This document shows, in pieces, positions 24,290-59,051 of a stretch of 64,000 nt of DNA. Below the pieces are notes generated by a model. That model worked only from the letters and a program-made list of their open reading frames with translations, ran no database searches and was not told the DNA's origin. The position numbers and the translations under genes were made by a program. Position 1 is the first letter of the stretch, and every line of letters begins with the position of its first letter. The DNA comes from Mustelus asterias (Eukaryota): the NCBI RefSeq assembly GCF_964213995.1, contig NC_135804.1, forward strand, positions 69,254,001 to 69,318,000, in the 5' to 3' direction.

Positions 24290-25560
24290 AGTTGGCAAAG
24301 CTCGTGTTGCTGAGGGCCTCCCTAGCTGCCCTTACATGTCAGATTCTTGCTGCTGCCAACCATCCAGCACCTGGGTGGTTGTGGTTGTGGTGGTGGTGGT
24401 CATCGTCACCTTCCACTTCCTCCACATCCTCCTGGGTAGCCTCCTCCCCAGCATTGTCCATCTGGTTGTGCTTGACATCCTCGTCCTCAAGGGAGTTTCC
24501 CCGTTCATGTGAAAGTTGTGCAGGGCACAGCAGACCACCAAAATATTGAACACTGTCAGGGATCTAAACTTTCAGGGCACTGCCAGAGTAGATACCTGAT
24601 CAGCATTTTCAGGAGCCCTATGTGCTGCTCCATGATAGACGACATGGCAGCATGGCCATTATTGCATTGTGTGTCCGCCTAGGTCCCAGGCCTCCACACA
24701 GGCATCACCAGCGAAGTCTGAATTGGGTACCCCATGTCTCCCACCAGCCATCCCTGCACGCTGGGTTCCTCCCCAAAGCCCCTGGCATATCAGGGCTTCC
24801 CAAAGTGAAACTACCATGCATGCTTTCAGGATGTCTGGCACACATGTGCATGATGCATAGCTGATGGTCGCACACCAACTGCACATTGATGGATTTTCCT
24901 GTTGGTGAAGTGGGCTGAGTTCTTCGGGGACCTCATGGTGACATGTAAGCACTCGAAAGCCCCCTGCAGGTTCTATATCCCCACAATGGCAGCAAATCCT
25001 ACAGCCTGGGCTTCTTGCTGATCCTGTCCCACACCAAATTTAATGTACTGGGCTGCCAGAAATACATGGCATCTGTGACTTTGTGTACACATTTGTGGAC
25101 AGAGGACTGGGAGATGCCACAAAATTTCCCACCGGCTGTCTGGAAGGATACGGTTGCATAGACATTTATGTCTTCACCTTTATAACCACCGGTAGTAGGT
25201 GCTCCCCTGTGCTCAGAGGTAACAAATCCTTCAGTAAATGTCACAGGTGGCACACTGTCACTTCTGTTGGCAAAGATGTCACAGGAGGCGATATCCGAGA
25301 GTTGTGAAAAAGGCACTCGCATCCTGAACTGCCAGGGTCTCAGTTCCCTTATTCTGCTGCCCTTCTCCTCCTGGATTGTCGGCCAACCTCCTGCCTCCAA
25401 TGGGCATCTCCGTCTCCTGCAGCAGCCAGTGGCATTGGCTGGCCATGTTATACCTGCAGTTCATGCTATTTCTCCTCCACTGCTCCAGCAACCACTAAAA
25501 TGCGTACAGCGTCTGTAAGTTGCATCTCTAATGCAATCAATAATCTGGTGGGCTGGTGCG
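24290..25560 (-). mobile_element. Harbinger (PIF) DNA transposon, degraded HARBI1-like DDE transposase
   Basis: Fragments CGISQSSVHKCVHKVTDAM, GWLVGDMGYP..LVMP and ILVVCCALHN on the minus strand. Confidence 0.8.
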
Positions 25561-25564
25561 GTGG

Positions 25565-26325
25565 CTTGTGGAAGGTCTAATACAGATATGACATATACAG
25601 TAAATGGCAGAACCCTTAAGAGTATTGATAGGCAGAGGGATCTGGGTGTACAGGTACACAGATCACTGAAAGTGGCAACACAGGTGGAGAAGGTCGTCAA
25701 GAAGGCATATGGCATGCTTGCCTTCACCGGCCAGTGCATTGAGTTTAAAAATTGGCAAGTCATGTTGCAGCTTTATAGAACCCTAGTTAGGCCGCACTTG
25801 GAATATAGTGTTCAATTCTGGTCAGTACACTACCAGAAAGATGTGGAGACTTTGGAGAGGTACAGAAAAGATTTACCAGCATGTTGCCTGGTATGGAGGC
25901 ATTAGCTATGAGGAGAGATTGGAGAAATGTGGTTTGTTGCCACTGGAACCACGGACGTTGAAGGGCGACCTGATAGAAGTCTACAAGATTATGAGGGGCA
26001 TGGACAGAGTGGATTGTCAGAAGCTTTTTCCCAGGGTGGAAGAGTCAATTACTAGGGGGCATAGGTTTACGGTGCGAGGGGCAAGGTTTAAAGGAGATGT
26101 ACCAGGCAAGTTTTTTCCACAAAGGGTGATGGGTGCCTGGAACTCGTTGCCAGGGGAGGTAGTGGAAGCAGATACGATAGTGAGTTTTCAAGTGAGGCTG
26201 GACAAATACATGAATAGGATGGAAATAAAGGGATATGGTCCCTGGAAGGGTAGGAGGTTTTAGTTCAGTCGGGCAGGTTTGGAGGGCCAGCGGGCCTGTT
26301 CCTGTACTGTAATTTTCTTTTCTTT
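25565..26325 (+). mobile_element. CR1 3' fragment
   Basis: QRDLGVQVHRSLK, VRPHLEYSVQFW and FFPQRV..AWNSLP. Confidence 0.9.
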
Positions 26326-27129
26326 TTGTTCTTTCTTTAGGGGAACGGGAGAGAGCGATGGATATGCAATAGACCTCTGGCCTCCCCAAACAAGTCACAC
26401 AAACCCTCCACTGACCACCCCACATCACAGACCACCCACACACATTTCACACTGGTCCTCAACACCCAAACAAGACGCACACAATCTCCACCGTCAACCC
26501 ACCTCCGAGGCAAGCCACACGCACACACACACACATAGAACCCCTGGAGTCGTGACCCGAGTCATGACTGTTATACAAGACCCGAGGATGCAGCGAAGCC
26601 ATTTCGGATGCTTTCCCCCATCTCCACATCAACTTGCTTGTTGCCGCAAGTGCTAGGACCAAGAGTCGCACTGTGATACGAGTTCAGCGCTTACATCTGA
26701 GTCAGCTGTGAGACCCCGCGGTACGATCCCAGAGCCAACAATACACATGCAGTACCACCCCCCTCCCCCCCCACCCGAAAAATAACGTGGCCGCCACTAA
26801 TCAACCCCCACTTTGCAACACGGAGCCCTGTGGACTGAATGACCTACTGCCTGACCGCACTTCGATACTGCTGCAAACTTTTTTTTAACAGGCCAAATGT
26901 TTTATTCCTCGATTGCAGTTGCCACGAATGGGGTCGTTAAGGCAAGTAAATCCGGTTAATGACATTGAGATGAATGCAAAATAATAAAAAAATGACGTCT
27001 TACCCGTTTTGTGCGAGCTCCCGATTGTGGTCACTTTTTCGCTGGAATGTTGGGAACGGCGCGAAAACGGGCGCCATTCGCATCGTCGATTCAGTCCCGA
27101 TGTTACGAAATCAACTCGCAGAAACTCGG

Positions 27130-28395
27130 GCCGGATGAAATCGGTAATGCCGCGGTCTCTATGTCTGAGACAGGTGCAGCAGTAGCGAACCGTCGCGTGG
27201 AGGTAAGACTCATGGGCCACGCCCGCTTTCTCAACTCTCGTGATGTTACCTATAAAAGATTCTCGGCGTGATCAACCTCCCGCCCATTTCCGGCAATTGG
27301 CTCAATATTTTATTAAGATGCTTAATTCCATATGATTAGTGAGCCGGGAGAGGTTCTCTGCGGCAGGGAAAACACCTGCTGCCCATGAACGAGGAACACT
27401 GATGTTCCCCACGCCGGTATAAGCGGAGGCCACTGAGGTCCACCGGGAAGTCGAGGGCAAGTTCCAGCCTCTCAGTGTTAGCCTGGCACCTTGGCATTTC
27501 CCAGGGGCACGGGGGGAGGGGGGGGCTGCCACAGACAGCCAGGTGGCATTGGCTGCCAGGCGGCTGGGTCGTCGCCAGTCTCGGATGCAATAATTGTCCA
27601 GCTCTGCTCTACAGAATCCAGCAGACTGGTTAGCTCGGCATCAGTAAGACACAGAACAGTCCTCCTTGGTGTCATCTTCGGGACGTGACTGCCTGTCTGT
27701 CCATCCTTGGCGCTCATATAGAGCTGTCCCTTCTTAAAGTAGTTTTGACGAGCCACGCGCTCGTTCAGTCTATTTCAGCGATAATCATGTCAAGGCTGTT
27801 TGTTTTCAACAGGGGGTGAGGCAAGAGCTACTCTGCAGCGGAGCTGATGAGGTTTACACTGCAGAGGGGACGATCAGGTTGAGGGGGGAGGGGTTGGGGG
27901 GGGGCGGGTGCTGATGGGATGAACTCTACATGATATCCGGCGAGCAGGTTGATTCTGATGGGGTGAACTCTGCAAGCAGGGCTGACCAGTGAGGGGGGTA
28001 ATACTGATGGGGTGACCTCTGCAATGGCCTAGGTCCGGGGTGGCTGAGGCTGTCGATGTGAGAGGCAGAAGTTGGGGGGGGGGGGGAGGGGGAGGCGTGC
28101 CGCCATTCCCATGGTGGGGAGGCCATGTCCGTGGGGCATAGGGCGTGTTGGATACATAAACAGGAGATCTCCTGGCATGTTGGGAGATCATACACATTCG
28201 CACTGATGTCCTGTGCAGTGTTTCGCCGGCCTCTGTGGCGGGATTAGGCTGCGACCATCCACTACTAGCATGAATCTCCTCGCGGCCTTTGTATTGCACG
28301 GAGCAGTAAATTATCAAAACTCAGATTGCTCAAAAAACCGACGAGGAAACCTGCCGTTTTCATTCCATTTCATTTAATAGTCATTGCAAAATTCT
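27130..28395 (-). mobile_element. Harbinger remnant with Myb/SANT-like ORF N-terminus
   Basis: PRRTVLCLTDAELTSLLDSVEQ (about 27680-27600) resembles the Myb/SANT N-terminus of the Harbinger second ORF; followed by a C-rich intron-like tract. Confidence 0.5.
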
Positions 28396-28399
28396 AACT

Positions 28400-30250
28400 G
28401 TATTAGATAATTGATCAGGCATTTTCCCAAACAATTCTAAGCGCTAAATGGAAACATAAAAACTGATTGTAAAGTTTAGATAGGTGTGTAGAGAGAAGAA
28501 TTGTGACACAAACATATGTAGGCCCCTTACACTCAGAAAGGGGAGAATTTATAACGGAAACAAAGAAATGGCTGATGAACTACATTTCTCGTTTGTTTCT
28601 GTCTTCACAAAGGAATACATGAATAATGTACGAGACGCTCCGAGAGAAAAACGTTTTAGATAGGAGCTGAAGGAAATCAGTATGAATAGAAAAATAATTG
28701 TGGGGAAATTGACGGGATTAAACGTGGATACATCTTCAGTTCCTGATAAACGTAATCTCAGAGTAGTTAAGGAAGTGGTCCTGGAAATAGGCATTCGCTG
28801 GAGGTTATTTCCCAAGATATTTTGAATTCTGGCCGAGGTCGTACACATTGGAGGGGAGCTAATGTAAGCCCACTATTCAAAAAGGGAGGTAGGCAGCAAA
28901 CAGGGAACTAGAGACCAATGAACCTATTGTCAGTTCTGGGGAAGTTGATAGATTCAATTATGTAAGATTTCACAGCTCAGCATTTAAAAAGCAGTAGCAT
29001 AATCAAACAAAACAACATGGAATTATGAAGGGAACCATACTTAATGAACCGATTGGAATTCTTTGAGGATGTATCGAGTGGATTTGATGATGGAGAAACG
29101 GTGCATCTGGATATTGTCACGTTAAAACGGGTGGCATTGTGCTTGCGTCCTGAGGTGGATAGAAAGCTGGTTAGCAGGTGTGAAGAATGTATTTGGCATA
29201 AATGTATCTTTTTCCGACTGACAGGAGTGACTATTAGGTATTGAAGATATATGTGCTGTTCATGTTATATATTAATGATTTACAAGAGGATACTAAATGT
29301 ATTCTCTCCGCGTTATCCAATAATACAATGTTGGGTTGGAGGGTGAGCTGCGAGGAGGATGCAGAGATGCTTCTGCATGATTTGGAAAGGCTCAGTGAGT
29401 AGGCATATGCATGGCAGATGCAATATAATGTGAATGAACGTGAGGTTATCCACTTCGGCAGCGATAACAGGAAGACAAATTATAATTTGAATGGGTGTAA
29501 AGTGAGAGATGTGGATAATTATTGAGGCCTTGCTGCCCTTGTGCATCAGTCACTGAAAGTAAGCATACAGTTACAACATCCAGCTTGCAGTAAAGAAGGC
29601 AGACGTTGTGTAGACTTCCATAGCGAGAGGATTTAAAGTTAGGAATAGAGATATATTCCTGCAATTTTACAGGGCGCTGGTAAGTCCATGTCTGGAATAT
29701 CGTGTGCAGTTTTGGTGTCCTCATCTGAGGAAGAATGCCCTTGCTATAGGGGAGTGCATCCAAGATTTATCAGGCTGATTCCTGGGATGGAAAGACTGTC
29801 AAATGAGGAGACGCTAAATCGGTTAAGATTATATCCATTGGAGTATAGAAGAATGAGAGCGAATCTCATAGAAACGTATCAAATTCTAATGGAATTTCTG
29901 AATGGTAGATTCAGAAAGAATGTTTTCGATAGGAAGGAGGTTCAGTACTAGGGGTGATAGTTTTAGGTTAAGAGCTAAACCTTTTAGAATTGAGGACATG
30001 AGACCGTTTGCCATACAAAGATTAGTGAATCTGTGGAATTCACTGCCAAAGGTAGTAGAGACCAAAACATTGAGTGATTTCAAAAATAAATTCGAAATAG
30101 CTCTTGGGGTTAAATGGATCAAGGGATTTTGGGGAAGTTGGGATCAGGATATTGAATTCGATGATGAGCTATGATGAAAATAATTGGCAGGGCAGGTTGG
30201 AAAGGCCGACTGGCCCACTCCGCTTTCACATTTCTAAACTTCTAGGTTTT
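28400..30250 (+). mobile_element. Old, heavily decayed CR1 ORF2
   Basis: Remnants of F.SVFTKE, NVSPLFKKG, LEFFE and LVNLWNSLP with many stops. Confidence 0.85.
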
Positions 30251-30479
30251 TATGTTAACATGGCAAGATGGCGCACGGCACTGGTCAAGTGCAGGTCAGT
30301 AGGACTAGGCATAAAATGGTTCGGCACAGACAAGAAGGGCCAAAAGGCCTGTTTCTGAGCTGTAATTTTCTATGGTTCTATGGTTCTATGGTCATGGTGT
30401 CGGTTTTCTACCGTCCAGACGCATATGGACCTTTGTTGCTGCGTTTGCCCCTTGCCCTCCCCCACCCAGAGCAAATATA

Positions 30480-31260
30480 TTTTTTTGCTTGGAGCCAATA
30501 GGCCTGCCATTCATTCTTGCATTTGCTGCTGTGGAGGAGGAAGAGTAGTAGTGAATCGTCCACGCATTTCAAGGCACGCGGGGGTCAGAGGCTGCAGCAG
30601 GAGGTCAGGGTTCCGTCGGTCTGGGTCCGGAGGCGGCCACTCATCTGTCGATTCGGGCGCCAGAGGATGGAGGAGATGGAGACCCTGGCAATTCAGGACA
30701 CATATGTCCTTCAACGAGCTGTTGGATGCCACGTGGAGGTTCCGGCTCGGCTCCCTGAGGAGATGATTACGGCTCCTGTTTTAGGTGCGCGCAGAATGGT
30801 CACCTTGAGGGACAGGGGGACATATGCTCCCAGTTGCGGCGAAGGTTGAGGTGTGCCTGAGGTGACAAAGGTCTTGTTCGTCTGGGCAGGCCCTTACATC
30901 TAATTCGACGGAGCCAGGCCCAGCCAGAAGCCGGGGCCACAGGCTTTGCCGCTATCGCCAGGATACTGAATGTGCACCTGGAGTATTGATTGCACACACA
31001 GCAACCTGTGATTCCCCAAAACGACAGGCACCGCAGTTCATGCACAGCAAGGAGTTCCAGATGAAAATCATGCATGTGTGCACGCCACCCGGGGAGCATA
31101 CATGATTGCTACATCTTCATGCAATTCTGCTGGCGTTTTATCATAGAATCTCTAACTTGCGGAGCTCCATCATCCCTGGCGAATTTGAGGAGCAGCCAAG
31201 GCTACCGGGATGGCTCGTGGGGGACAAGGTCTACCCGTTAATAACGTGACTGTGGCACGA
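30480..31260 (+). mobile_element. Degraded Harbinger transposase fragment
   Basis: RRWRPWQFRTHMSFNEL (also seen at about 25340, minus strand) and GWLVGDKVYPL near 31208-31245. Confidence 0.7.
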
Positions 31261-33369
31261 GTGTGGAGGTCAGAGACCGATACAGAGACCCCTTTCATTG
31301 CACTAAGTGCATAAGATGCATTTTCAAACTCGCCCATAAAACAGATCTGAGTCTGTCCCGTTTCCTCAATGGTTCGGCACTTTATTTTCGCTCAGTCGTG
31401 TCCTTAAAATTGTTTCCATCAGATCGCCCCTTTAGGCTGAACGGCCTGTACCTGCCCCAATTACTTTGCTCATGACTTCAACAGTTTGTAACGAGGAGAA
31501 GTCCCAGTTGTAAGTTAGTTGAACAAGGATAATAGCCAGGTAATCAACTAATAATGTATGCGGGAGCGTTGTTTGGAGACGGGGAAGGAGGGACGAACAA
31601 ACGATTTATTATGAGGCTAAAATCACGAACATTTTCATCTGTTGCTGAAGATTAAAGCTTCGATTAAGATTACCTGGAGAAATACTAAACAAGTAAAGAA
31701 GAAATCGAAACATGGATGTTGTTGTGTAGTTGGTTGGTTATCAATTGATCTTGGTCGGGGACGCAAGGGTTACCCATGGTAGCGTGGGAACCACCTTTTA
31801 TTGGTGACTTCTATACTGGCTGTTAGTCGCAGTCACACACAACACAGACAGTAAATAAAAGGGCCATGGAGGAAGTTAGTGCTGTGCAATATTCCAAAAA
31901 TCAATAATGAAAAATATGAAATTAAAGCAGGGTTGTGATGGCGCTGGCAACATGCATTTGACACATCCTCACGAACGCCTTAACCTTCATTTAGTTCAAA
32001 ACTATTTCCAAGTTACAAGGCACGTGATGTTGATAATAGATTATAATGCCAGAGATCATGTCTAACCATTGAGATGGAAAATGTTACCTTACCTTCCTTA
32101 TTCCGTATGCCATATATCTGTTCATAAAGCAAATAGTTGACAGATTTATTTGTAATGACTCTCAATTTGACCTCCACTTACAAATTTCCACCAATACTAT
32201 CACATGCAGGTTTCCTCACGAAATCTACCTGTACGCACGCATCTGTCTTCCTGAAAGTGAACGTTTTCATCTCAGTTCTTTATATAAATCTAAGGAGGAG
32301 GTATCGCAAACTCGCTGTCAACAAAACGGTCCCACTTCTCAAATATGGCACTATGTAAGTTCCAGGTATAGCCCGACCAGCGCTACCTGCCGTAATGGAG
32401 AATTTGCTGCTTAGCCAAATCTCTGGCTGGCATTCTCTGACCTCATGTGCGGTTCGGAGTCTCCTTCTGCAAGTGAATGAAGGATTGGCTGAGCTCCATT
32501 CACAACATCAGCACCTGAAAGTCCCAACCGCCGATGCCGTTGGGGACTCCCGGCCGAAGTGTCTGTTCTCTCTCCGTAACTCCTGCTGCACAAATTGATC
32601 AGCGAGAGCTTCTACTTATTAACGTATTCGAAACCACCATTTCGGAATATCCAGAATGAGTGAACCGCTTTGGAGGAAATCAATGGGCTCAGTCGTGAAA
32701 TGATGTGGCACCTGCCCCAGACGTGCTAAATCGTTTCGCAACGATATCACAAGCTGACCACGAGAAGGATCAAGGATGGAAAACCAATTTTAAAAACCTG
32801 TGAGGTCAGAAGGCGACTAATTATTGAAAATGTTGCAATTTGAAAAATGAAAGATACATGGATATTTTCACGTCACATATCAAAGGAGGAGGTGGGAGAG
32901 GCGGGTGGTGGTGACAATGAAGTCACAAATAGAGATTCCTGGAATGACAATCGAGTGAAATCCTAATTCATGTGAGAAAATAAGATGAAACATTAGCAAA
33001 TTAAGGAGCGAATCAAGCGTATCACGTCTGGATATTGGGTAGAGCAAAGATTAGCCAATCTATTAAAATCAAAAGTAAATTAGAGTAGAAAATGACGCAG
33101 AGTTGTCTTTCTTTCGTGTTATCCATATATGTGGAATGGCTGGAACTCGAAAATCCGATGACGGAGGAGCATGGTCAAAAGCGATGGAGAGCCATGCGTG
33201 GAGTGAGTTTCAAGGCAAACAGAAAAATTAATATTTGTAGAAAAAATCCATCAGCGATTTTCGAAAATGTCAAAGGCCTGATGTAAAGGCAGTTACCGAG
33301 GAAAAGAAATACGCAAGGTGAATACATCGATTATGCAGTCATCGCGCAACACTTCCTTGTATGCTTAAT

Positions 33370-33498
33370 TTAGCTTTTCGTTTTCACGGCTGCGTATGTT
33401 AACCTTGTTTTTCGGAATGTCGTTTTCGACGATGACCTGGAACCTGCCAGATTCAGAGCAACGTAAGTCAATTTGCTCTCAGCGGTGCTCTGTATGGT
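33370..33498 (-). CDS. Exon 7, terminal coding exon with two ITIMs (TIQSTAESKLTYVALNLAGSRSSSKTTFRKTRLTYAAVKTKS*)
   Basis: Acceptor gatttacAG, phase 0; motifs LTYVAL and LTYAAV; stop TAA at 33372-33370. Confidence 0.8.
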   Translation of the reverse strand, partial: TIQSTAESKLTYVALNLAGSRSSSKTTFRKTRLTYAAVKTKS

Positions 33499-36400
33499 CT
33501 GTAAATCAACGACAGGGAGTATTTTACTATTTATTAAATTAAATTTATCGAAATTGCATCAAGTTGATTTTCAATATAATCTCAAAAGCAAATTATAGCA
33601 GACAAGATTAAAGTTTCCACGTGGGAACTGAGATTTACCTCTGTATATACCGCGTGTTATCTGTGTTGTGTCGGCATTTCGCCACGCTTGGAACCGGTCA
33701 GATAAAGAGCAGCGTACATCAGTTTGCCTTCGGCTGAATTTAGTTCCTTCTAGGAATTCAATGTTTAGTATTCAGTAAGTTTCATCTTTCGGACACAAGA
33801 TCTTGCATACATACATACAAATTAGAAACAGAAGCAGGCCGCTCAACCTCTAAAACCATTTTGCTATTCCTTAAGACATGTTTGATCCCCGTGTGGCCTC
33901 AATTTCACTGTCCTTTCTACGCCCTGAATCTTCAAGCCATACAAACTGCCCTAATCCAATAAGCTCCACAAGCATCTACGAATTACCGTATCTATCTAAC
34001 CTTCTACAGTTCCTTGGCATTTCCCAGCCATTATTCACAGTAGTTCTTTACTTTGAAAAAATAGCAAATCAAATTAGTGTTTTTTCAGTTTTCTCTCTTG
34101 TCAATCAAAAAGTTATCGAAGTCAACCTTGAAGTAATTGAATGAATATGCCTTCACCGCTCTCTGATTACATCAGTTCTACAGATGCGTGGCCCGCTGAG
34201 AGAGAAACAAATCAAATCTCCTCATCCTTGTCTTAAATGGTAAATCATGTTTTTTTTCAAACGGCATCACGTATTTTTAGTCTTTGCTACAAAGTATCAC
34301 ATTCTTGCAACGTCCATCCTGTCAAGGCGACTCAGCATTTTCTACTTTTCAAAAGATCACTTAGTCTTCTAAAGTGAAGAGGGTACAGGCCCAATCTGTT
34401 AAAAATGTCCTCATTAAATAACACGCTCATCCCAGCAATCAATCTGGTGAAACTTCTCTTAATTATTTGAACTGAAATTATTTTATTTCTTAATGAAGGG
34501 CCAAAGCTGCGTACAATACGTTTGGGCCGGAATTTTGCTGGCACGCCCACCCCGATTCCGGGGGCGGTCGCGACACGGAGGACGGCTTCCTCCGAAGACC
34601 TCTGGCGGGATAGTACAGACCTCGGGCGGAGGTGTCGGTCAGATTGTTCCTTCGGCACCGATGCTCAGCTGCAGCACTACACTTTATAATCCATTCTTCT
34701 TGCAATGAACGATAACATTCCATTGGGCATCCCAGCCACTTATGCGCCTTCTCAACCATATATTTCGGTTCATATTATTGTGTTCTGATTCAGGTACCAG
34801 GACATCCGTATGTCTCTGTACATCAGAGTCTAAAATATCTCCGCATAAAAAAACAATGTATGTTTTTTATTCTGACTGCTAAAATGGACAAATTCGCGAT
34901 CTCTCACGTTATATTCTATCTGTCATTTTTTGCACACTCTTTACCTATCCGTGACACTCTGCAGACTCCATATTTCCTCCTTGCCACTTACTCATCCATC
35001 TACTTTCTTTCATCAACATCTTTAGCAACCATGCATATAGTGTCATCATCCAAGTCGTTGATATCAATTGTAAATAATTGAGGACCCAAGACTGATACAC
35101 ATGACACTACAATTGATACATATTTTTCCAACCAGATAAAAGGCCAAAATGTGCCTACTCTATGTTTCCTGACAGCTAGATAGTCCTCGATAGATGCTAT
35201 CACCTGTGTCATGTGATCTTGCTATGTGTGGTAACCTTTGATGTCGAACATGATGGAATGTTTTTTCGAAATCCGCAGTATCCACAGTAACTCCACAGGT
35301 TCGGTTTTATTCACTTCGCTTGTTACTTTCTCAAATAACTCATACATTATGTCATAATAATTTCCAGGTTACAACCCCATGTTTACTCTGCTAACCTCCA
35401 TCAGATTTTCCAAGTGCCCTGTTACAACTCCTTTATTAATAGATTCCAGCATTTTCCCAATGGCAGATGTTAAGCTAATTGCCCTGTAGTTTCTGGAATA
35501 CTGTTTCCCTCCTTTCTTGAGCAAAGGAGCTACATTCGCTGTTTTATTCAAATCTAATTTGTCGCTGCCAGAATCTAGGAAATTTTGAAAATTTAAATCC
35601 AAGTCATCCATTATCTCAGCAGTTACTTATTGTAAGACCCTCGCAACAGTTGCATCATGTTTGGGAATTTTCAGATTTTTCGTTATATTATTTTTTCAGC
35701 AGCATCATCCTGCTGAAAGTAATCGTTTTATGTTCTTGCTTCCGTTTCGCATCGCGATCTCCAATTATTTCTGGTATGTGCTTTGTATCCTCTACAGCGA
35801 TATATGTTCCAATGATTCTGCTTTCGCTTGATTGGCAATCCTAATTCGTCAGACTCGCTCTTTGGAGGAGCAACACATTATAAGTAGTTGCTTTTACAAC
35901 ACCTGTGGAAACTCTTCCGATGTGTGCTGCATATTCATAGCGAACGATCGGTCCTGCTCTGATGTTTCACTTCATGTTTAGCCATTATTCGCTGTAATTT
36001 ATGCAACTTGTTCGTCTAACCTGCCAGTAATCTTCAGGGAATTGATTTTGTTTATTTCAATTTGATCCTGTTGATATCTTCCTTAGTCAGCCGCGGATAA
36101 TATGTCCGTCCCCTCGAGATTTTTTGTTCTTTCTGACTCAAATGGCTGAGAATTAGAAAACATCTCCTTAAATGTCCAAAGATGTGCGGGTTAGGTTGAT
36201 TGGCCAGGTTAAAATTGTCCCTGAGATGCGTAGTTAGAGGGATTAGCGGATAAATATGTGAGGGTAGGGCCTGGGTGGGATTGTGGTCGGTGCAGACTCG
36301 ATGGGCCGAATGGCCTCCTTCTGCACTGTAGGGTTTCTATGATTCTATGAAATGTCTGATAAAAGAAAGACAGCTGTGGATGCTGGAATAACAACAGAAA

Positions 36401-39400
36401 ATACTTGAAAATCTTAGCAGGTTGACAGCATCTGTAGAGAGAAAATAGAACGAAGTCCAGATCACCCTTCGTCAGAGCTTCGTCAGACCCCTTGTCAGCA
36501 TTTTGCAATAACAAAGGATCGAGTATGGAAGTAGCAAAGATCAAAGACCATTACAGCACAGAAACAGGTCCTTCGGCCTTCCAAGCTGAAATGTCAGCTT
36601 GTGAAAGAGAAAGACGGGCTGCCTGAACAGTATAAATAGATTTTTTAAATTCTGAATCGCCTGGTGGATAACTTTTTTTATTCTTAAGCAAAGAATAACG
36701 GGTGATCTCATTTCAAACCGCGTAAGAAGGATAGGCAACAGTGTTGCTCTCTGTTCTCGTTACCGATTCTACACTGAGATTAGAAATTTGAACTTTATTT
36801 GTAATATAAATGCCGTGGCACGTTTTCACCATGCTGCAGCTTGGTTTGCACAACAAGAAATGCAAATCTGCGAACCTTATTCTCACTATCTTTAGTAGCC
36901 GAAAAAGGCATGCCATTTTAGCTAATACAGATGGAAAGTTAAAACTGTATGAACTATTCAAATAGCTGGCAGAGTTTGCAAACGCTTCGACCATTTTTCT
37001 AATTTTACTTGTTTATACATAAAGTTGCGCTTTTACAGAAAAGGGGAAAAGTCAAGTCCAAATCCCCCACATGTTTAAAAGAGATTTATTTAATGTGATG
37101 TATCAATCATTCACCTGAACTTGAGAACACAAGTTCAGGATTGTTAACAAAATGTTCTTACCTCATCTGTACGCTGTGTAGTATTCATTGATTTTTTCCT
37201 TGCACCTGGTGAAATTCAAAAAGGATAACGTAAAAATAGGGGGCATATTTGCATTTGACCCGATGTCAATTAAGTAAAACGCAATTCATGCCAGCAAGCT
37301 ATCGTGATACGCTGATTTCGTAATATATCTCAAAATGTTCAAACCAAACGAATTTGTTTTGCTATCGCTTCTGTATTAAAGCTACGCAGGCAACATTGCA
37401 CTATTTAATCTACATTTTTATGGTTAGATCTTTATAATGCAGTTCGGAAAATGAAGCTGTGAGCATTATAATGACAGATACTCATGTAATACTTGAGTTT
37501 AAGCAACATGTAAGTGTGAAGGTATTTTTCCGTCAGTTAATTATGCGAATTATACCAATAAGCAGCTTTGCTCCCGCTTATAGTTACTCGAATCGGATAC
37601 TTTAAGATTTCGTCTGCGAGTAAATTATTTCCTGCAGTGTGAAAATTCTCATTCATACCTTTGCACTTCATGACTCCAATCGCTATCATTAGGGTCAAAA
37701 ATAGAATTGCAAGTACACCACGGAACCATCCACCGAGCATAAGAACGTTGATTTTAGAGGGATTAGCTATCAAAATTAGAAAATGTCATGTCAGCCATAT
37801 GTACACAGCTATCAATATCAAATGCATAATTTTCAATTACACTGTGAATTGAACATCATGATACAAAATATAAAACTTCGGTACATCATTTTAATTATCG
37901 ATATTTATGCAGCTGTTTTACGAATCGTTCGAAAAAACGTGGTTGAAAAATATAGATCATAGAATCCTAGAGTCGTAGAATCCCTACAGGGCCGAAGGAG
38001 GCCATTCATCCCATCGAGCCTGCACCGACAAAATTCCCACGCAGGCTCTATCCCCGCAACTCCACGTATTTACGCTTCTAAGGCCCCTGACACCAAGGCA
38101 CAATTCAGCATGGCCCACCTAACACACACATCTTTGGAGTATGGGAGGGAACCGGAGCAGCCGGAGGAAACCCGCGCTTTCGCAGGCAGAATGTGCAAAC
38201 TCCACACAGTCATCCGAAGCCCGAATTGAACCCGGGTCCCTCGCACTGTGAGACAGCAGTGCTTACCTCTGTGCAAGCCTGTTGGAGAAATAGCAGCAAT
38301 GTTGAATAAGGTGCCCATTGAATGGGCACATTCCCCTTCACGACTATACGAAATGCAATCGTTTTCAACTGATTGTGCCAACCAAAAAACAATTAAAATG
38401 TCGTTCCAAGTTTAATTGCACCACACGCAGAAAGGTTCCAAACAAATCGCTTGAGATCATCTTTCAAGGAAAGATTCATGACCGTGTATTTATTCATCTT
38501 ATCACAATTACCTGTGATCCTATTTTTAGTAGCATTACGAGTGAGTAACAACTTTATAAATGAGGAATCAAGTTGGCCTAGTTCGTATCTGCAGCATTAT
38601 GAAAAGATTCAATTGTTCGATTCCATAGCTCAGCGATCCATTATTTTTCAGTGCCCCGATTGAAAATCGATGCTGTATCGTTTTCTGAGTTGCAATGTTA
38701 TGCGGTTAATCTGATTTATGGGAGCAATACTGAAGACTCAAACTCATTATTGGTTAGGTTGCATGATGCAGTCGACAACATATCCTATTTTAAAACCAAA
38801 AGATTGGAAACCTTCGCCCAAAGAATACAATAAGATTCATCAATATATGAGCATCAAGCTACTCTAGTAATCACTTCCTATGCATCATCGTTTTTCATGC
38901 ATTTTTGTGAAGGGCGAAATACTAAACTATCATATTTCATATAAGATTACCTTCATCAAAAAACGAATAGCTGGCATTTGCTGGCATTGAGCTCGAAACG
39001 TGATATACTTGGCAGATGTAAACTGTGCCTTGTTCGATCGCCTGCTGTTTCAAGTTGCTGACAACTTCAAAAAGCCCCTCGGAATTTGCTTGTTGTTCAT
39101 TTTGAAATCCGCTGAGAATTTGAGCACCGTTTTTATGCCAGGTTAGGTTAAATCCTTTCGGATAAAAAGCCGCAGTTTTGCACTGGAGTCTAATAGTAGC
39201 AGATGAGATCTCTTCGGATGATATGGACATAATTTTCAGGGGAGCCGCTGGAGCTAAATTCAAGATAACAATACAGATAAATTGAAAAAGTGAGCTTCTG
39301 TTCTAAAAATTCGTAATTTTATTAATTACGTACAGCTTGTTCTTGGCAAGCAAGTTTCTTTAATAATCAGTATTTTTATATTGCTGCGTGGTGTTTTTAA

Positions 39401-41037
39401 TAGGTTTTCTCGGTCCCTCCACCCGTACGCTATTAAAGTACTACCAGCATGTTTAGCAAAATTGACTTGCATAACTTGTCCCTATTTATTTAAACCTATG
39501 TGTTACAGTCGGTATACTGCATTTAAGGATTTAGCGATTGGGAGAAGGGGGAGGGCCAGGGGGAGAGGAAAGGTGATAGCGGAGCGATATTATCGCTTGA
39601 CTACTAATCCAGAAAATCAACTAATATTCCGGGAACTGGCAAATGGTGGAATTTGAATTCCATTAACAATATCTGGAATTAAGAACCTACTGATCACCAT
39701 GAAACCATTGTCGATTGTCTGGGGAAAAACACGCATCTGGTTCAGTAATGTATTTTAAGGAACGAAATCTGCCGTCTTCTCGGTCTGGTCTACACGTGAC
39801 TCCAGATTCACAGCAATGTTGTTTACTCTGAACAAGGAAAACTAAGGATGGACGTTAAATGCTCGCCAGCCAGCGAAGCCCAAGTCCCACGAATAACTAA
39901 AAAATAAACAATTGTTGACACCAGCCATTCAGGAATAAACGTGGATGATAGAAGCTTGAAAGGCGCCTCCAAACGTTTGGATTGCGAGCCCCACTCTCTT
40001 ATAATTAGCGAAAGGGCATTGAAAATGCAAATATTGCGAGCGACTATAAAATTATTCATCCAGTTAGAACGTTCCCACATTGAAAACTAGTTTTACTTAT
40101 TAGTTTTGCTTGCGCTTTGCTTGGCAAACTTCAAGTCAAGTAGCATTTTTTTAAGATAGGGAGTTGATAAACTTTGCAGTGTCGTTGCTACTGCAGGTTT
40201 TCCACTTTGTTGAACATCTGTCCTTCTAATCAAGTGAATGTGCTTTCAGCGCTCTGCATTTATTTATTTTAATGGTCTATTAACCTTCGTTGATTGACTC
40301 CATCTACTAAGCATGACATATTTTCAACTTACCATATATGAGTACTTGCACCGCAATATCGTTCACAATCACCCGACGCTGAATTTTGACTGCACAGTGA
40401 TATGTTCCGGCATCCGGTATGTTGACATTCAGGAGTTGAAGGTACGCTCCACCTTTCATTATCTGGAAGCGTTTTCCGCTGTCCTCCTGCAGCAACCTCT
40501 TATTACCATCTTTCCACCAGAAAGCGGTTGCGTTTATAAAGTCGGTATGGAAAGGGAAAGGACATCGCAAGGTTACGTTTGTGCATCTGAGCGCCTTTAT
40601 TGGTTCAATTTCCGATGTGCCCATAGCAACTATAAACAAAAATGAACACACACATACTAAATCATACATATGCAATAAAAGTTGATGTATACTACGAAAA
40701 TAACATCACCCGTTCAGTCCACATATACCGTAACAATTTAATGTGCCTCACTGCTAGAATTATTCTCGAGTTCCAGCATTTGTATTTCGACTTGAGATTT
40801 CTAAATATGTTTTACTCACCCAGACCCTTCCGACCACTCGGAACACGCGGCATGGCAATAAACACAATTTTAACAAAAATAAAGACATTCACTTTTCCGC
40901 CAACTATGAGATCAACTTACTGTTGCGTCTGGTTCGCGAATAGTCATAGAAAACAAAATGAAAACATAAAATAGAAATCTACCTGGAAGGAAAATCGACA
41001 AAAAAACTTTGCCCCAAAGCGAACAACCCATGACCAT
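33370..41037 (-). CDS. Ig-superfamily type I membrane receptor, leader-V-C1-TM-ITIM tail (SIRP-like / V-C1 receptor), 7 coding exons; premature TAA in exon 6
   Basis: Exons 41037-40983, 40629-40333, 39253-38951, 37766-37659, 37205-37162, 33749-33639 and 33498-33370 are all bounded by GT-AG with matching phases (1,1,1,1,0,0). Products: 299 aa if stopping at the exon 6 TAA, 311 aa if exon 6 is skipped, 348 codons if the stop is repaired. Confidence 0.85.
33639..33749 (-). CDS. Exon 6, ITIM exon with internal stop (KELNSAEGKLMYAALYLTGSKRGEMPTQHR*HAVYTE)
   Basis: Acceptor attcctAG, donor GAG|GTAAAT, 111 nt, phase 0-0; ITIM LMYAAL; TAA at 33659-33657. Confidence 0.75.
34140..36170 (-). mobile_element. 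Old CR1 ORF2 in intron 5 of the receptor gene, with a GC-rich MITE-like insert at about 34524-34665
   Basis: ANVAPLLKKG, NYRAISLTS and [10 protein letters not shown]; the insert starts GGGCCGGAATTTT (Harbinger-like terminus). Confidence 0.8.
36172..36350 (+). mobile_element. SINE 3' half (same subfamily as 10957-11295)
   Basis: Near-identical to 11105-11295. Confidence 0.9.
37162..37205 (-). CDS. Exon 5, short juxtamembrane cytoplasmic exon (GARKKSMNTTQRTDE)
   Basis: Acceptor tttcaccAG, donor GAG|GTAAGA; 44 nt converts phase 1 to phase 0. Confidence 0.75.
37659..37766 (-). CDS. Exon 4, stalk plus transmembrane helix (NPSKINVLMLGGWFRGVLAILFLTLMIAIGVMKCK)
   Basis: Hydrophobic run followed by basic KCK; acceptor ttttgatAG, donor AAAG|GTATGA; 108 nt, phase 1-1. 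Confidence 0.85.
37950..38280 (-). mobile_element. HE1/V-SINE-type SINE in intron 3
   Basis: Reverse-complement SINE core and tail. Confidence 0.85.
38951..39253 (-). CDS. Exon 3, Ig C1-set domain
   Basis: LQCKTAAFYPKGFNLTWHKNG ... GLFEVVSNL ... YICQVYH, matching the C1-set CxxxxFYP / W / YxCxVxH pattern; acceptor aatttAG, donor GAAG|GTAATC; 303 nt. Confidence 0.92.
39570..39905 (+). mobile_element. Interspersed SINE-like repeat (Deu-type domain suspected)
   Basis: catgaaaccattgtcgattg...catctggttca.taatg...ggaa..aaatctgcc, shared with 2445-2580, 52520-52670 and 62560-62750. Confidence 0.6.
40333..40629 (-). CDS. Exon 2, Ig V-set domain
   Basis: NVTLRC ... FWWK ... LQLLNV..DAGTYHC motifs; acceptor tttgtttatAG, donor TATG|GTAAGT; 297 nt, phase 1-1. 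Confidence 0.92.
40983..41037 (-). CDS. Exon 1, leader peptide MVMGCSLWGKVFLSIFLP
   Basis: ATG at 41037; 55 nt ending CCAG|GTAGAT (phase 1), joining the V exon in frame to give ...FLPVAMG. Confidence 0.75.
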
Positions 41038-41039
41038 AT

Positions 41040-41510
41040 GGACGCAGAGACAATGATAGATAATACGCTGAGATTATATACCGAACACACGGATATCCGT
41101 CGGATGGGCGGCTCCGATTTGATTATAAACGACTACTGATCAGTGAGCAAATGACAAGATAATGCTGAGTGAAACAAATGCATATCTTTTCGAACAAGAT
41201 ATTCCGGCGTGAGCTGAAGTAGTAATGGGAAACAGAAGGCAACGATATCAAAACAGACTGGTGAGGGAGGGGCGTGGTGAATGGGACTGGTCCCGGGCGG
41301 TATCGATGAACAAATGGTAAATGACACGTCAAGTCCATGAATCGCCATTTTGTCAGCCACCATGGGGGAATAATATTGCAAGTCTTCACAATATCGGTTC
41401 CCCAAATATTTGTGTTGGGTTCACTGTGGGCCTACGTTGATCGTTTAAAGTGCCATTGGTCCGAACCGTCTGGTTGATTCAGGCAGCAAACAGGTGAGAA
41501 GTGAGTAGAG
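41040..41510. promoter_or_regulatory. Putative (possibly bidirectional) promoter upstream of the Ig receptor gene
   Basis: CpG-rich non-repeat DNA with minus-strand TATATAAT (41080-41073), GC boxes GGGCGG (41106) and GGGGCGTGG (about 41270), YY1-type CGCCATTTT (41343), and a plus-strand donor CAG|GTGAGA at 41493. Confidence 0.4.
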
Positions 41511-41959
41511 CCTGTCGGATAAATATTAATTATATTGCTTGATGCACAATCAGATTGTGGGAGATGAGGCAATTTCCCGGTAATGGAATATCTGTGGAAA
41601 TTTCCGAATGTGACTTCTAGTGGTTTTTGCTATTTTTCTGCGCGGAGTGTAGACTCGGGGTTTATTCAATTATGCGCGCAGTTGGAGGTGGGGCCGAGCT
41701 GGTGCTAGACCTCGCCAGTTAGCTTTTAAGCTGTCTTCATTTCCAACTGTAGGCCTGCAGCGTCAGTTTAAGACACTCTTCTCCAAGTATCCTACGAATG
41801 AGAATAAACCCGGGACAATATACAAATTGCTGGGTTAAAAATGAGATGTACACTTCTCACAAATCAATCAATTTAATACATTTTGCTGATACATTGTATT
41901 TTCCTCTGGAGAAATTCGAACACTATCACTAACAAGAAACTGATCTTAACATGGACTAT

Positions 41960-44900
41960 AGATATGAAAATCAGGTATCAGGTGAAAGTCACAGCCAACG
42001 ACACCAAAGTAGCATTTGACCGAGTGTCAAGGAGCTCTAACTTAACTGGCGTCAATGGGAATAAGAGGGAAAACGCTCCGCTGACTGGAAGCATACCGCA
42101 TACCTGGGACAACAAAGGATGTTTTTGGTGAATTTAGGTCAATTATCTCAGTTCCACGACAACACTGCAGGAGTTACTCAGTGTGATGTCCTGGACCCAA
42201 ACATCTTTAGCTGCTTCTTCGATGACCTTCCTTCCATCATAAGGCCGGAAGTGTGGATTTGTTTTCAGGTGACTGCTGAATATTGACAAGAATTTGCGAC
42301 TCATCAGATACTGAAGCAGTCTATAGAAAAAAATACAGCAAGGCCTGTACAATATTCAGGCATTAGCTGAAAACAACAGAAAAAGAACATTCACGCCACA
42401 CAAGTGCCGAGCATCTCCAAAAAGGGATTATCTAGCCTGTCAACGGTGCATGACGTTAACATCGCTGAGTCTTCCACTGTCAACATCCTGGGGGTTACTA
42501 TAGAATAGATTTTGAACTGGTCTAGCCACATACAAGAGTGCTTTGCATGGCAATTCAAAGGCTAGGTATCCTGCTGCGAGAAACTCTCTTCCTGGTTCCC
42601 CAATGCTTGCCCTTCATTTATAAGGCGCAGGTCTGGAGTGTGATGGAAGACACACCGCTTGTCTGAATGAGTGCATCCGCAACAACATTCAGTAAGTTCC
42701 ACATATTCAGGACAAAGCAGCTCGCTGGATTGCTGCACCCTCCGCATCATTTAATCCGTCTACCAGCGACGAATACTTGCAGCCTTGTGCAGCAACTGTA
42801 AAATGCACTGCACTACAAAATGAACGAATGTTCCTGAGGTTGTAGTGTCATCGAGAAGGCAAGAGCTGCAGATATATGCTGGAGCAGAAAAGTTCCAAGT
42901 GACTTTGGGAAAACACAAGAACTAAACAATGATCATCTGCAATGCAAAATAATCCAACCATTGATTCTTGACATTCAATGTTATTCCCCTCAGTGAAAAC
43001 CACACGAACAACATCCAAAGGGTTATCATTTGCCAGAAACTTAAGTAAACCATCCATATAAATAGTTGGCATGCACATGAAATCTGTAAAATAAAGGCGT
43101 TCATAATTTGAAGTCGTACCCAGCACAAAGTAATATGGTTGCGGTTGCAGGAGGTAAATAATCTAATCTCCTGGATATCACTGCAGAAATTCCGCAGGGC
43201 AATGCCCTCCGATGAACTGCTTCATCAATAAGCTGTCTTCCATCATCAAATAAGAAGTGGGATAGTTCTTTGATGTTTGCAAAAGATTCAAAATTATTCG
43301 AGGTGCTTCAGACTGTGAAGCAGCTAATGTCAAAACGGAACAGGTCCTGCACAATATCCAGGTTTGAGCAGACATCTGCCATTGGCAATACACAAGTACT
43401 AACCAATACCCAGCTACAATAAGCGATAATCTAACCATTGTGTATTGATATTCAATGTCATTTACTTCACCGAATTCCACAGAATCAACATCCTAGGGGT
43501 TACCATTTACGAAAAATTTAAGTAGACTTTCGTTTCAAATATTTTGGCTACAGAAACATTTAAGAGGCTAGGGATGCTGCAGCGAGTTACTCACATGCTG
43601 ACTTCCCAACGCCTGCCCACTATCAACAAGGCATAGTTTAGGAGTGTGATGGAATATCATTTATGACCTGGATGAATGAAGCTCAAATATTACTAAAGAA
43701 GCTCAGCACATTCAGAACCACATCCTGGAAGTTCCCCTCATCAGTCACTTTGCAGACTTGGAAATCTATTGCCATTCGGTCAAAATCCTGGATCTTTCAT
43801 CTCCCACAGACCCAACGGCGCTGTTGGTGCACCTGTAATTTAGGGACTGCAGCCTTGCAAGAGGCAGTTCACCACCACCTTTTGAAAGGCAACTAGGGAT
43901 GGTCAATAAATTTTGGCCTATCGATGTCCGCAAAGCATAAGTTAAGTTACAAACTGACCTATGGTCTTCAATGCGAGCACGAAATGTTGATGGATGCATG
44001 CTTCTCGACAACGCACTCCCAACCTCGGTCGTTGTGTACTTGAAACAACATTGATTGAAAATGCCCCAAATTGCATTGCTTATTGTTTTACCAGTTCCAT
44101 CAGCTCACCGTAATTTTGACACCAGTTAGTTCAGACACTCTTTGTACAAGGCTCAATTATGTGTTATAACGTAGGCAGTTGCATGAAATCTGGAAACTAA
44201 AAGTGTTCATTATTTGTAGTAATACCCAACACAAAGTAATATGGTTGCGGTTGCAAGAGGTCAGTCATCTAATTTCCAGAACATCACTGCAGGAATTCCG
44301 CAGGGCCGCGTTCACAGGTGAACTGCTTCATCAGTGACCTGTCTTCCGTCATAGGATAAGAAATGAGGAAGCTTTTTGATGTTTGCAAAAGGTTCAAAAT
44401 TATTCGTACTTGACTTTGAAGCACCTAATATCTAAACAGAACAGGCCCTGGACAATATCCAAGCTTGGGCAGCGAAGTGCCAGCTGACGTTGGCAATACC
44501 CAAGTGCGAAACAATGACTGGCTACACTAAGAAGTAATCTAACAATTGCGACTTCACGTTCAGAGTAATTTCCATCAGTGAATCTCACACTATCAAAATC
44601 CGAGAGGGTTACGATTTAATGGAAACTTAAGTAGACAATCCATATAATATTTTGGCTACAAGAACAGTTCAGAGGCTAGGGATGCTGCGGCGAGTTAATC
44701 GTCCGCTGAGTCCAGAACACCTGTCCGCCTCAAAAAGCCATACGTCATGTGATGGAGTATCTTCTATGGTCTGGATGAATGTAGCTCAAATATGGCTAAA
44801 TAAGCTCATCGGATTCAAAAACGAACTGCCGCTTAAATTGCATCGCGTCCACAAATATTCCATCCTTCTAACATGGACGACAGTGCAGCAATCTGTACCA

Positions 44901-45250
44901 TGCAAAAGATGCACTGCTGTAAATTCCCAGAGTCTCTGAGGCAGCACGTTCCAAGCTAATCACTGCTCCGATCTGGAAGGAAAAGGGAAGCAGGAATATG
45001 GAAACATCACCATCTGACAGTTTTCCTTCAAGTCACTCACCATCCTGACGTGGGACTACATCACCGTTCCTTCACTGTCGCTGGGTCAAAATCCAAAATC
45101 TCCCTCCATAACCGTACCGTGCCTGTAAATGCACCACATGGACTACAACAGTTCAATAAAGTCATTCAATCCCATATTCTGAAGGACAATAAAGATGGGC
45201 AATAAATCCTGGACTTGCCAATTACTCCCACATCGTGTGAACTTATTAAA
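41960..45250 (+). mobile_element. Three decayed RT/3' segments of an old non-CR1 LINE
   Basis: Recurring gcatttgaccgagtg, aactgcttcatca.tgacct, caacatcct.ggggttacca and gaggctagg.at.ctgc blocks. Confidence 0.7.
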
Positions 45251-45609
45251 AAGATTTATGAAGTTCAAAGAGCTCTTGAATAACTGGTAGATATAGCAAA
45301 TTTAAACTTCACAATACTTGTCCTGAATTTTGGATTAATGGCCTGGAGGCTAAAATAAAATAGTGTTTGTATTGATCGTAACTGGTGACGTTGTTTGTTG
45401 AAGTAATGTCGGAGAAAATCTGGTTATTGAGCGGTTTTGGTAGTCAATTGCTCAGGTGTTTTGGTAGCGTTCCTTCCGCCCTTCCGCCTTAATCCTGAAT
45501 ATTTCATGCACACATGAATATATCAATATGGCAGCATCACGCAGTCATATAAAATGTTAAAAAAAGTTATTGTTAATTAGCAATAATCTTGAGTCTGATT
45601 CAGCACTTT

Positions 45610-46420: not shown

Positions 46421-46689
46421 AAAGATAATAGCTAAGAAATCGACCTAAAGGAGTGACTTGAGGACAGTATTCAACTAAAATATCCAAGCTAAGTGAATGT
46501 CAGAGGTATATCGTGTTCGCAAAATAAGTTTACTTGGTTTAAATACTGCGTGTTGTAATTATCTGGACCATTTTGTTGTCTTCTTGAAGTTTCATGATTA
46601 GCGTGGTAATGCGATTTGTTTTTGCTGTGATGTCTGTCAAATTCACTACTTTCATGCATTTGCTTCATTATTTCACGTTATTTGGGGGA

Positions 46690-51304: not shown

Positions 51305-51395
51305 AATCATGTAAAATACACCGCCAAAATGTCTGTATGGTGGTAGTAAGTCTCAGATACGCAAACAAACCTCTATAATTGATGTGCCTCATGCA

Positions 51396-56009: not shown

Positions 56010-56240
56010 TAGAATCAAAGAATCCATACAGTCCCAAAGGATGCCATTTCGGCCTGTCCAGTCGGCACTGGCAGCGATCCCACCCAGGCTCTACCCCTGT
56101 AGCCCCACGTAGTCACCCTGCTCGTCCAGCTGACACTAAGGGACAATTTAGTATGGCCAATCAACGTAACTCACACACGTTTGGAGTGTGGGATGGAGCA
56201 ACCGGAGGAAACTAACGCAGACACGTGCAAACTCCACAGA
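56010..56240 (-). mobile_element. SINE 3' portion
   Basis: Reverse-complement HE1-type core and tail. Confidence 0.8.
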
Positions 56241-59050: not shown

Positions 59051-59051
59051 G

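What the first reader, a model, noticed from the sequence alone, without database searches (positions are those of the whole stretch)
33639..33749. In-frame TAA in a symmetric ITIM exon: decay, or a switch controlling ITIM number
Seen: exon 6 (111 nt, phase 0-0) has TAA at 33659-33657, just after the first ITIM, while the frame and donor continue normally (HAVYTE|GTAAAT). Inclusion gives a 299-aa protein with one ITIM, skipping gives a 311-aa protein with two ITIMs, and a repaired allele gives 348 codons with three ITIMs. The stop is only 18 nt upstream of the last predicted junction, so by the 50-55 nt rule it should escape NMD. Tandem ITIMs are generally needed for efficient SHP-1/2 engagement, so the isoforms could differ in signalling (inference).
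Basis: partly seen in the sequence, partly recalled or inferred. Interest (0 to 1): 0.7.

Follow-up and report, generated by a model that had tools for sequence, protein, structure and literature searches.

The report
Shark brake receptor turning accelerator
One of four recent copies of a shark immune-receptor gene has a real stop codon that removes three of its four conserved signalling tyrosines and a new arginine in its membrane anchor; predicted proteins of two other sharks show the same pair of changes, so it is likely an inhibitory receptor turning into an activating one rather than a splicing switch, though plain decay of a spare copy remains possible.

Summary
The TAA (33659-33657), the exon phases and the 299/311/348 counts are confirmed. 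The stop is a derived GAA>TAA change: three near-identical paralogs and four of four outgroup runs have GAA, and an independent contig repeats the TAA haplotype. The gene is a V-C1-TM receptor of a large SIRP-alpha-like shark family. Its tail has four conserved tyrosines in two 23-residue pairs; the stop leaves one. Predicted horn-shark and zebra-shark proteins show Arg at the same place plus tail loss, from separate origins (p-AU 9e-6). Best reading (0.5): recurrent inhibitory-to-activating or dual conversion, as in KIR and Ly49. Rival (0.33): decay of a spare copy; TM and tail changes do not clearly exceed the intron rate, and the poly(A) hexamer is altered. Exon-6 skipping is annotated in one family gene but nothing ties it to this stop (0.1). 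Expression and adaptor binding are untested. This scan noted a similar switch earlier at another locus of this genome (e1-9582984).

The parts
40983..41037 (-). Exon 1, predicted leader (18 codons + 1 nt)
   Evidence: ATG-initiated hydrophobic 55-nt exon with CAG|GTAGAT donor; aligns by eye with the N-terminus of horn-shark XP_067905931.1
40333..40629 (-). Exon 2, Ig V-type domain; 1.0% different from all three paralogs
   Evidence: Pfam V-set/Ig_3 below cut-off, E 2e-4/6e-5; 56% to Heptranchias protein; divergence
38951..39253 (-). Exon 3, Ig C1-set domain; 1 amino-acid-changing and 10 silent differences to all paralogs
   Evidence: Pfam C1-set E 1.7e-11
37659..37766 (-). Exon 4, transmembrane segment; 6 amino-acid-changing and 1 silent difference to all paralogs
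37720..37722 (-). Arg234 codon (CGT; GGT Gly in all three paralogs), next to Phe233 (Ser in paralogs)
   Evidence: small residue in 6 of 6 outgroup proteins; no other copy of this exon in the genome search
37162..37205 (-). Exon 5, 44 nt, juxtamembrane, phase 1-0
   Evidence: its 3' end matches (29 of 30) the loose end joined to exon 6 in run X20
33639..33749 (-). Exon 6, 111 nt, phase 0-0: ITIM1 and second tyrosine
33705..33722 (-). ITIM1 LMYAAL (Tyr281), the only conserved tyrosine motif left before the stop
33657..33659 (-). Premature TAA, codon 300 (GAA Glu in paralogs and outgroups)
33645..33647 (-). Tyr304, partner tyrosine of ITIM1, now behind the stop; itself TAA in run X17
33370..33498 (-). 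Exon 7 coding part with ITIM2 LTYVAL (33471-33454) and ITIM3 LTYAAV (33402-33385), both intact
32820..32825 (-). AATAAT where all three paralogs have AATAAA (candidate poly(A) signal)
24574..61768 (.). Duplicated segment of at least 37 kb shared with paralogs at G000:C4 67.78 and 67.85 Mb (third paralog at 67.94 Mb compared over 17 kb only)

Best explanation
The TAA is a derived stop in one of four recent gene copies, and with the arginine that the same copy gained in its membrane anchor it likely marks an inhibitory receptor being converted into an activating or dual one. Shown: the copy encodes leader-V-C1-TM and a 48-residue tail with one ITIM; the paralogs encode four-tyrosine tails and an uncharged anchor; the V exon is nearly the same in all four. 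Inferred: the mRNA escapes NMD (stop 18 nt from the last junction); loss of both tyrosine pairs weakens bivalent SHP-1/2 binding; Arg234 pairs with the acidic residue of an ITAM adaptor of the FcR-gamma type; the receptor binds the same ligand as its inhibitory twins, forming a paired-receptor set. The end state resembles KIR2DL4 (arginine plus a single ITIM). Exon-6 skipping may occur, as a general property of the family, not as the reason for the stop.
For: (1) G234R and S233F are derived: Gly/Ser in 3 of 3 paralogs, small residues in 6 of 6 outgroup proteins. (2) Parallel sister pairs in RefSeq models: horn shark XP_067905013.1 has Arg at column 234 and ends with exon 5, its twin XP_067905931.1 has Gly and keeps exon 7; zebra shark XP_048402851.2 has Arg at 235, keeps ITIM1 and departs from the alignment before ITIM2, its twin XP_059507783.1 has no Arg and a full tail. 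Exon-7 tyrosines kept in 0 of 3 Arg rows and 6 of 7 non-Arg rows (Fisher p 0.033; one Arg row, a read-through model, left out). (3) One origin of the four Arg234/235 anchors is rejected on a 52-column TM+exon-5 tree (p-AU 8.8e-6); the Arg copy has the longer branch in the window pair (0.18 vs 0.009) and the horn-shark pair (0.35 vs 0.07). (4) Only 2 of 20 single-base routes to Arg/Lys in the paralog anchor fall on 234-235. (5) V-domain homogenisation: 63 of 4951 sites differ in 5' flank, leader and V against 258 of 7238 from intron 2 on (p 6e-16); V vs TM differences are 0/87 vs 11/38 and 3/88 vs 7/38 in the other two pairs; this is the pattern of PMC3210942 (abstract and PIR section read). 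(6) C1 conserved: 1 changing vs 10 silent differences (p 2e-6 against neutrality). (7) The family has established Arg-anchor, short-tail members: Arg 17 residues from the cytoplasmic end in 7 of 10 (window 18); long tails in 1 of 10 Arg rows vs 23 of 32 others (post hoc, p 0.0008); one lies at C4:69.72 Mb. (8) FcR-gamma/zeta-family TM exons exist in the genome (2 matches over cut-off). (9) Precedent: activating KIR arose by a TM charge plus a stop in the tail (PMC2213150, passages read).
Against: Amino-acid changes in TM (6 seen, 2.8 expected at the intron rate, p 0.064) and tail (7 seen, 7.2 expected) fit relaxed constraint; TM ratio not above neutral (p 0.48). Seven random changes put Arg/Lys somewhere in this anchor 37% of the time. 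The planned test of Arg against strict ITIM presence failed (p 0.47; 42 of 47 hand-picked rows, 5 dropped). By alignment the established activating lineage has its Arg three columns further out (231) and the NxxR motif of FcR-gamma-coupled LRC receptors (PMC6557307, passages) is absent. One ITIM remains. AATAAA of the paralogs is AATAAT here. C1 conservation may predate the stop. The horn- and zebra-shark rows are predicted models whose DNA I did not see, and models often lack tail exons (the non-Arg whale-shark model also ends at exon 5). Contigs of runs X2 and X4 show only GAA letters, so the copy may be polymorphic. In the carpet-shark group the TM tree is unresolved.
Confidence: 0.5

Rival explanations
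1. Birth-and-death decay: a spare copy under relaxed constraint gathered a stop, an arginine and a weakened poly(A) signal by drift; it is a young pseudogene or a weak one-ITIM receptor.
For: Three intact paralogs give redundancy. TM and tail change at about the intron rate. 20 of 333 single-base changes in exon 6 give a stop. Poly(A) hexamer altered. Other tail lesions in relatives: Tyr304>TAA in 4 of 4 X17 contigs; 4-nt losses in both X20 exon-7 contigs, one with Tyr318>TAA; Tyr281>Asn in XP_067905931.1.
Against: No lesion in leader, V, C1, TM or any splice site; C1 1:10 changing to silent; Arg at the same one or two columns in separate lineages, each time in the copy with the shortened tail; V exon homogenised.
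Confidence: 0.33
2. One reading: exon-6 inclusion gives a one-ITIM form and skipping a two-ITIM form, and the stop is kept to set this ratio.
For: Symmetric exon, intact exon 7, stop in the NMD-escape zone; weakest acceptor by pyrimidine count; the 37-residue skip is annotated in XP_067905924.1; skipping leaves one whole tyrosine pair. A G>T change in a purine-rich stretch could weaken a splice enhancer (recalled mechanism, not tested).
Against: Exon-6 splice signals are identical in the three stop-free paralogs; skip annotated in only 1 of 5 multi-isoform long-tailed genes, and that gene has no stop; X20 contigs join exon 5-6 and exon 6-7, and their exon 7 is broken, so a two-ITIM skip product is not preserved there.
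Confidence: 0.1
3. Assembly or consensus error.
For: Contigs of runs X2 and X4 show GAA only.
Against: The X1 contig carries TAA linked to six other window-specific letters; the copy differs from the paralogs by about 3.4% and by its own insertions; collapsed contigs drop minority copies.
Confidence: 0.03

Closest known systems
SIRP-alpha / SIRP-beta (PMC12975943, passages read)
   Same: V plus C1-set ectodomain; all four tail tyrosines align with those of rodent SIRP-alpha (P0180); relatives are named SIRP-alpha-like or SIRP-beta-1-like by RefSeq; inhibitory and charged-anchor members side by side.
   Different: One C1 domain, not two; Arg near the outer end of the anchor; conversion happens repeatedly in young copies; ligand unknown; orthology not shown.
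Activating KIR and Ly49 formed from inhibitory homologues (PMC2213150, passages read)
   Same: A positive charge in the anchor and a stop in the tail arise on the same branch; repeated in separate lineages; rat Ly49s3 relatives carry both charge and ITIM.
   Different: Unrelated ectodomain; hominoid KIR used Lys/DAP12 and a stop inside the first ITIM, here Arg and a stop after the first ITIM.
KIR2DL4 (PMC12394279, passages read)
   Same: Transmembrane arginine with a single ITIM; dual potential; truncating alleles exist.
   Different: Different Ig domains and family; function there is shown, here predicted.
PIR-A / PIR-B (PMC3210942, abstract and section 15 read)
   Same: Arg-anchor member beside a three-ITIM member, ligand-binding exons homogenised.
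   Different: PIR signalling parts are old and conserved between species; here the signalling part of the Arg copy is still 94% identical in DNA to its inhibitory twins.

Membership tests
SIRP family | Ectodomain of one V-set and two C1-set domains | tested here: not met
   One V and one C1 exon only; no further family exon in the window; definition from PMC12975943
SIRP family | Inhibitory member with four tail tyrosines | tested here: met
   Paralogs keep Tyr281/304/318/341, which align with the four tyrosines of rodent SIRP-alpha; the window copy keeps one
SIRP family | Descent from the SIRP lineage (tree, synteny) | tested here: inconclusive
   Rodent SIRP-alpha found at E 1.5e-11 with the horn-shark relative but is a long branch in the ectodomain tree; synteny not tested
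SIRP family | CD47 binding | not testable with these tools
   Needs a binding assay
FcR-gamma-coupled activating receptors (LILRA, NCR1, GPVI, OSCAR, PIR-A type) | Arginine in the outer part of the transmembrane helix | tested here: met
   Arg234, 18 residues before the first cytoplasmic Lys; 17 in 7 of 10 Arg-bearing family rows
FcR-gamma-coupled activating receptors (LILRA, NCR1, GPVI, OSCAR, PIR-A type) | NxxR motif | tested here: not met
   The window reads G-W-F-R; motif from PMC6557307
FcR-gamma-coupled activating receptors (LILRA, NCR1, GPVI, OSCAR, PIR-A type) | Short tail without ITIM | tested here: not met
   48-residue tail with one ITIM
FcR-gamma-coupled activating receptors (LILRA, NCR1, GPVI, OSCAR, PIR-A type) | Association with the ITAM adaptor | not testable with these tools
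   Needs co-precipitation or a reporter assay
Paired opposing receptors | Near-identical ligand-binding domain with divergent signalling part | tested here: met
   1.0% in V against 6.5% in TM exon; same pattern in two other species' pairs
Paired opposing receptors | Opposite signals on a shared ligand | not testable with these tools
   No ligand known
Pseudogene | Further disabling lesions or no transcription | tested here: inconclusive
   No second coding or splice lesion; one candidate poly(A) hexamer altered; transcription not testable

The most novel reading that the evidence does not exclude
In this shark V-C1 receptor subfamily there is a repeatable two-step route from brake to accelerator: a Gly-to-Arg change at one anchor position plus cutting of the tail at or before the end of the first-ITIM exon, taken separately in at least three shark lineages while the V exon is kept identical to the inhibitory twin; the window copy is a very young, functional example, and skipping of exon 6 would let one gene make both an Arg/one-ITIM and an Arg/two-ITIM receptor.
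Probability: 0.3. Interest if true: 0.72.

Novelty: new variant of a known kind. Interest (0 to 1): 0.5.

Why it matters
Recurrent birth of activating receptors from inhibitory ones is established for mammalian KIR and Ly49, where the order of steps is mostly lost. Here the converted copy is only about 3% away from three intact inhibitory twins, so two codons (234 and 300) can be tested one by one. If functional, it extends this rule to cartilaginous fish and to an adaptor-arginine route, in a large receptor family for which my five family-aimed paper searches (also 55) found no description.

Tried and rejected
The look-up of sequencing runs: no RNA holder listed; this says nothing on expression. 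No exon 5-7 joint was listed in any of the eight runs laid, but only exons 6-7 were laid, all runs were contigs and contigs drop rare forms: not used as evidence. Complex prediction of the window TM exon with two copies of the genome's FcR-gamma-like TM exon: no verdict (score 0.12, controls not folded). PDB sequence searches gave only generic Ig constant and V-type hits. Single-exon protein searches gave one hit each. A donor for the Arg anchor by gene conversion was sought and not found: only the four copies match. Arg against strict ITIM presence was not significant. An in-frame ATG at 40669 was considered as start and set aside for the 55-nt leader, which fits the horn-shark N-terminus. 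Look-ups of earlier findings by place and by sequence were empty. No supplements were read; papers outside the held library (for example subscription immunology journals) may describe this family.

Full report
Observation. The exon, the stop and the counts are as described. Exon 6 (33749-33639, minus strand, 111 nt, phase 0-0) has TAA at codon 300, 18 nt before its donor. A seven-exon model (leader 41037-40983, V, C1, TM, exon 5, 6, 7) gives 299, 311 and 348 residues. Pfam places exon 3 in C1-set and exon 2 weakly in V-set. Named relatives are all from cartilaginous fish and are labelled SIRP-alpha-like, tapasin-related-like or uncharacterised. The family is large in this genome: 57 of 132 C1 matches lie on contig C4, nearly all at 58.8-60.0 and 67.6-70.0 Mb (150 of 343 candidates scored).

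Origin of the stop. The gene lies in a duplicated segment of at least 37 kb with three other copies 1.3-1.5 Mb away. All three have GAA at codon 300 and all four tail tyrosines. Runs of four other organism labels (X5, X10, X17, X20) also read GAA. So TAA is a derived G>T. One contig of run X1 repeats TAA with six linked window-specific letters, while X2 and X4 give paralog-like contigs; X1 may be the assembly's own sample, and its depth is 4.3, but a lone consensus error is unlikely.

What the stop removes. The tail is two homologous modules. Exon 6 holds Tyr281 and Tyr304, exon 7 holds Tyr318 and Tyr341, each pair 23 residues apart and conserved in 12 of 16, 10 of 13, 14 of 15 and 10 of 10 family rows; all four align with rodent SIRP-alpha. 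PMC8631942 (passages) reports that SHP-1/2 bind best bivalently to tyrosines about 25 residues apart. The three products thus have two, one (skip) or no (stop) intact pairs; the effect on signalling is inference. [quoted passage not shown]

The splice-switch idea. Skipping of the homologous 37 residues is annotated for one horn-shark family gene (XP_067905924.1 against XP_067905922.1), 1 of 5 long-tailed genes with several annotated isoforms that I compared (a Callorhinchus cluster of five models was not compared). That gene has no stop. Exon-6 splice signals are identical in the four copies. In run X20 (RNA status a guess) contigs join exon 5 to 6 and exon 6 to 7 (loose ends match 29 of 30 and 25 of 30 letters). 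Both exon-7 contigs there have lost 4 nt, one also has Tyr318>TAA, and the exon-6 consensus of the two reads TAA at codon 304; the agreement value suggests that only one of the two carries it. Run X17 has the same Tyr304>TAA in 4 of 4 contigs (34 table rows were not shown). So tails are cut after ITIM1 repeatedly, and a two-ITIM skip product is not preserved in those relatives. I looked only at exons 6-7 in these runs, so lesions elsewhere would be unseen.

Against all three paralogs the window copy differs by 1 changing and 10 silent codons in C1 but 6 and 1 in TM (Fisher p 0.0025). Two adjacent changes give Phe233-Arg234 where paralogs have Ser-Gly and six outgroup proteins have small residues. 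No other copy of this exon was found as a donor. Divergence is 1.3% over 5' flank, leader and V but 3.6% from intron 2 on, the homogenisation pattern described for paired receptors in PMC3210942 (abstract, section 15). The family has established Arg-anchor members with short tails, one at C4:69.72 Mb; of 47 hand-picked rows 5 were dropped, the planned ITIM test gave p 0.47 and a post hoc tail-length test p 0.0008. The genome has FcR-gamma/zeta-family TM exons (the assignment of each to FcR-gamma or zeta is recalled).

Parallel cases. In the same subfamily two RefSeq sister pairs repeat the pattern: horn shark XP_067905013.1 (Arg234, model ends with exon 5) against XP_067905931.1, and zebra shark XP_048402851.2 (Arg235, ITIM1 kept, then an unrelated C-terminus that looks like a frameshift) against XP_059507783.1. 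V domains differ at 3 of 88 and 0 of 87 positions, TM at 7 of 38 and 11 of 38. A fourth Arg235 row (Hemiscyllium) is a read-through model and was left out of the count; exon-7 tyrosines are kept in 0 of 3 Arg rows and 6 of 7 others (p 0.033). One origin of the four Arg anchors is rejected (p-AU 8.8e-6, 52 columns). These are predicted models; I did not see their DNA.

Against. TM and tail changes are near the intron rate (6 vs 2.8, p 0.064; 7 vs 7.2). A basic residue somewhere in the anchor is not rare by chance (37% for seven changes), though at 234-235 it is (4%). The established activating lineage has its Arg at column 231 by alignment, and the NxxR motif (PMC6557307, passages) is absent. 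The paralogs' AATAAA is AATAAT here; whether it is the site used is unknown. One ITIM remains. Expression and adaptor binding are untested.

Comparison. It works like the KIR/Ly49 switch of PMC2213150 (passages: TM charge plus stop on one branch; rat Ly49s3 relatives with charge and ITIM) and ends like KIR2DL4 (PMC12394279, passages). It is SIRP-like but fails the two-C1 criterion (PMC12975943, passages), so I do not file it as a SIRP. Paper searches aimed at the shark family found no description; the library lacks most subscription journals. An unreviewed note of this scan reports the same kind of switch at another locus of this genome (e1-9582984); I reached the reading before seeing it and do not count it as support.

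Verdict. Real, derived stop. Conversion to an activating or dual receptor 0.5, decay 0.33, splice switch 0.1, error 0.03. New variant of a known kind; interest 0.5.

Noticed in passing
G000:C4:67784575-67784697 (L002, L005): The paralog at 67.78 Mb lacks one A near the end of exon 7, after ITIM3, and reads on for nine more residues; may be a homopolymer error.
   Followed up: partly
window 38951-39253: C1 exon has 10 silent differences to the paralogs where the intron rate predicts 2.2 (p 1e-4); unexplained, no more distant donor found in the genome.
   Followed up: partly
window 33645 (runs X17, X20): Independent stop replacing Tyr304 in relatives, with decayed exon 7 in exon-joined contigs of X20.
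   Followed up: partly
L045-L046 (G000:C4 69.709-69.719 Mb): V, C1 and Arg-bearing TM exons of an activating-type family member, about 60% identical in V and C1 to this subfamily.
   Followed up: partly
L052:1507-1599 and L051 (G000:C275, C17): Two TM exons of the TCR zeta/FcR-gamma family over the Pfam cut-off.
   Followed up: partly
window 40669-40630: An in-frame ATG and 13 hydrophobic codons in the end of intron 1 could give a second leader directly on the V exon.
   Followed up: no
P0012, P0177 (horn shark models): XP_067905931.1 has lost ITIM1 by Tyr>Asn; isoform XP_067906074.1 of another member lacks the whole C1 exon.
   Followed up: no
window 36172-36354, 39815-39820, 32637-32668: A 180-nt insert only in the window copy; inserts of about 2.9 kb and 1.9 kb only in the paralogs. 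The V-homogenised zone begins near the 2.9-kb insert.
   Followed up: no
window 3260-7659, 14330-17701, 49592-51022: Long ORFs that look like reverse-transcriptase retroelements, including a 583-aa frame at 5908-7659; labels recalled, not searched.
   Followed up: no
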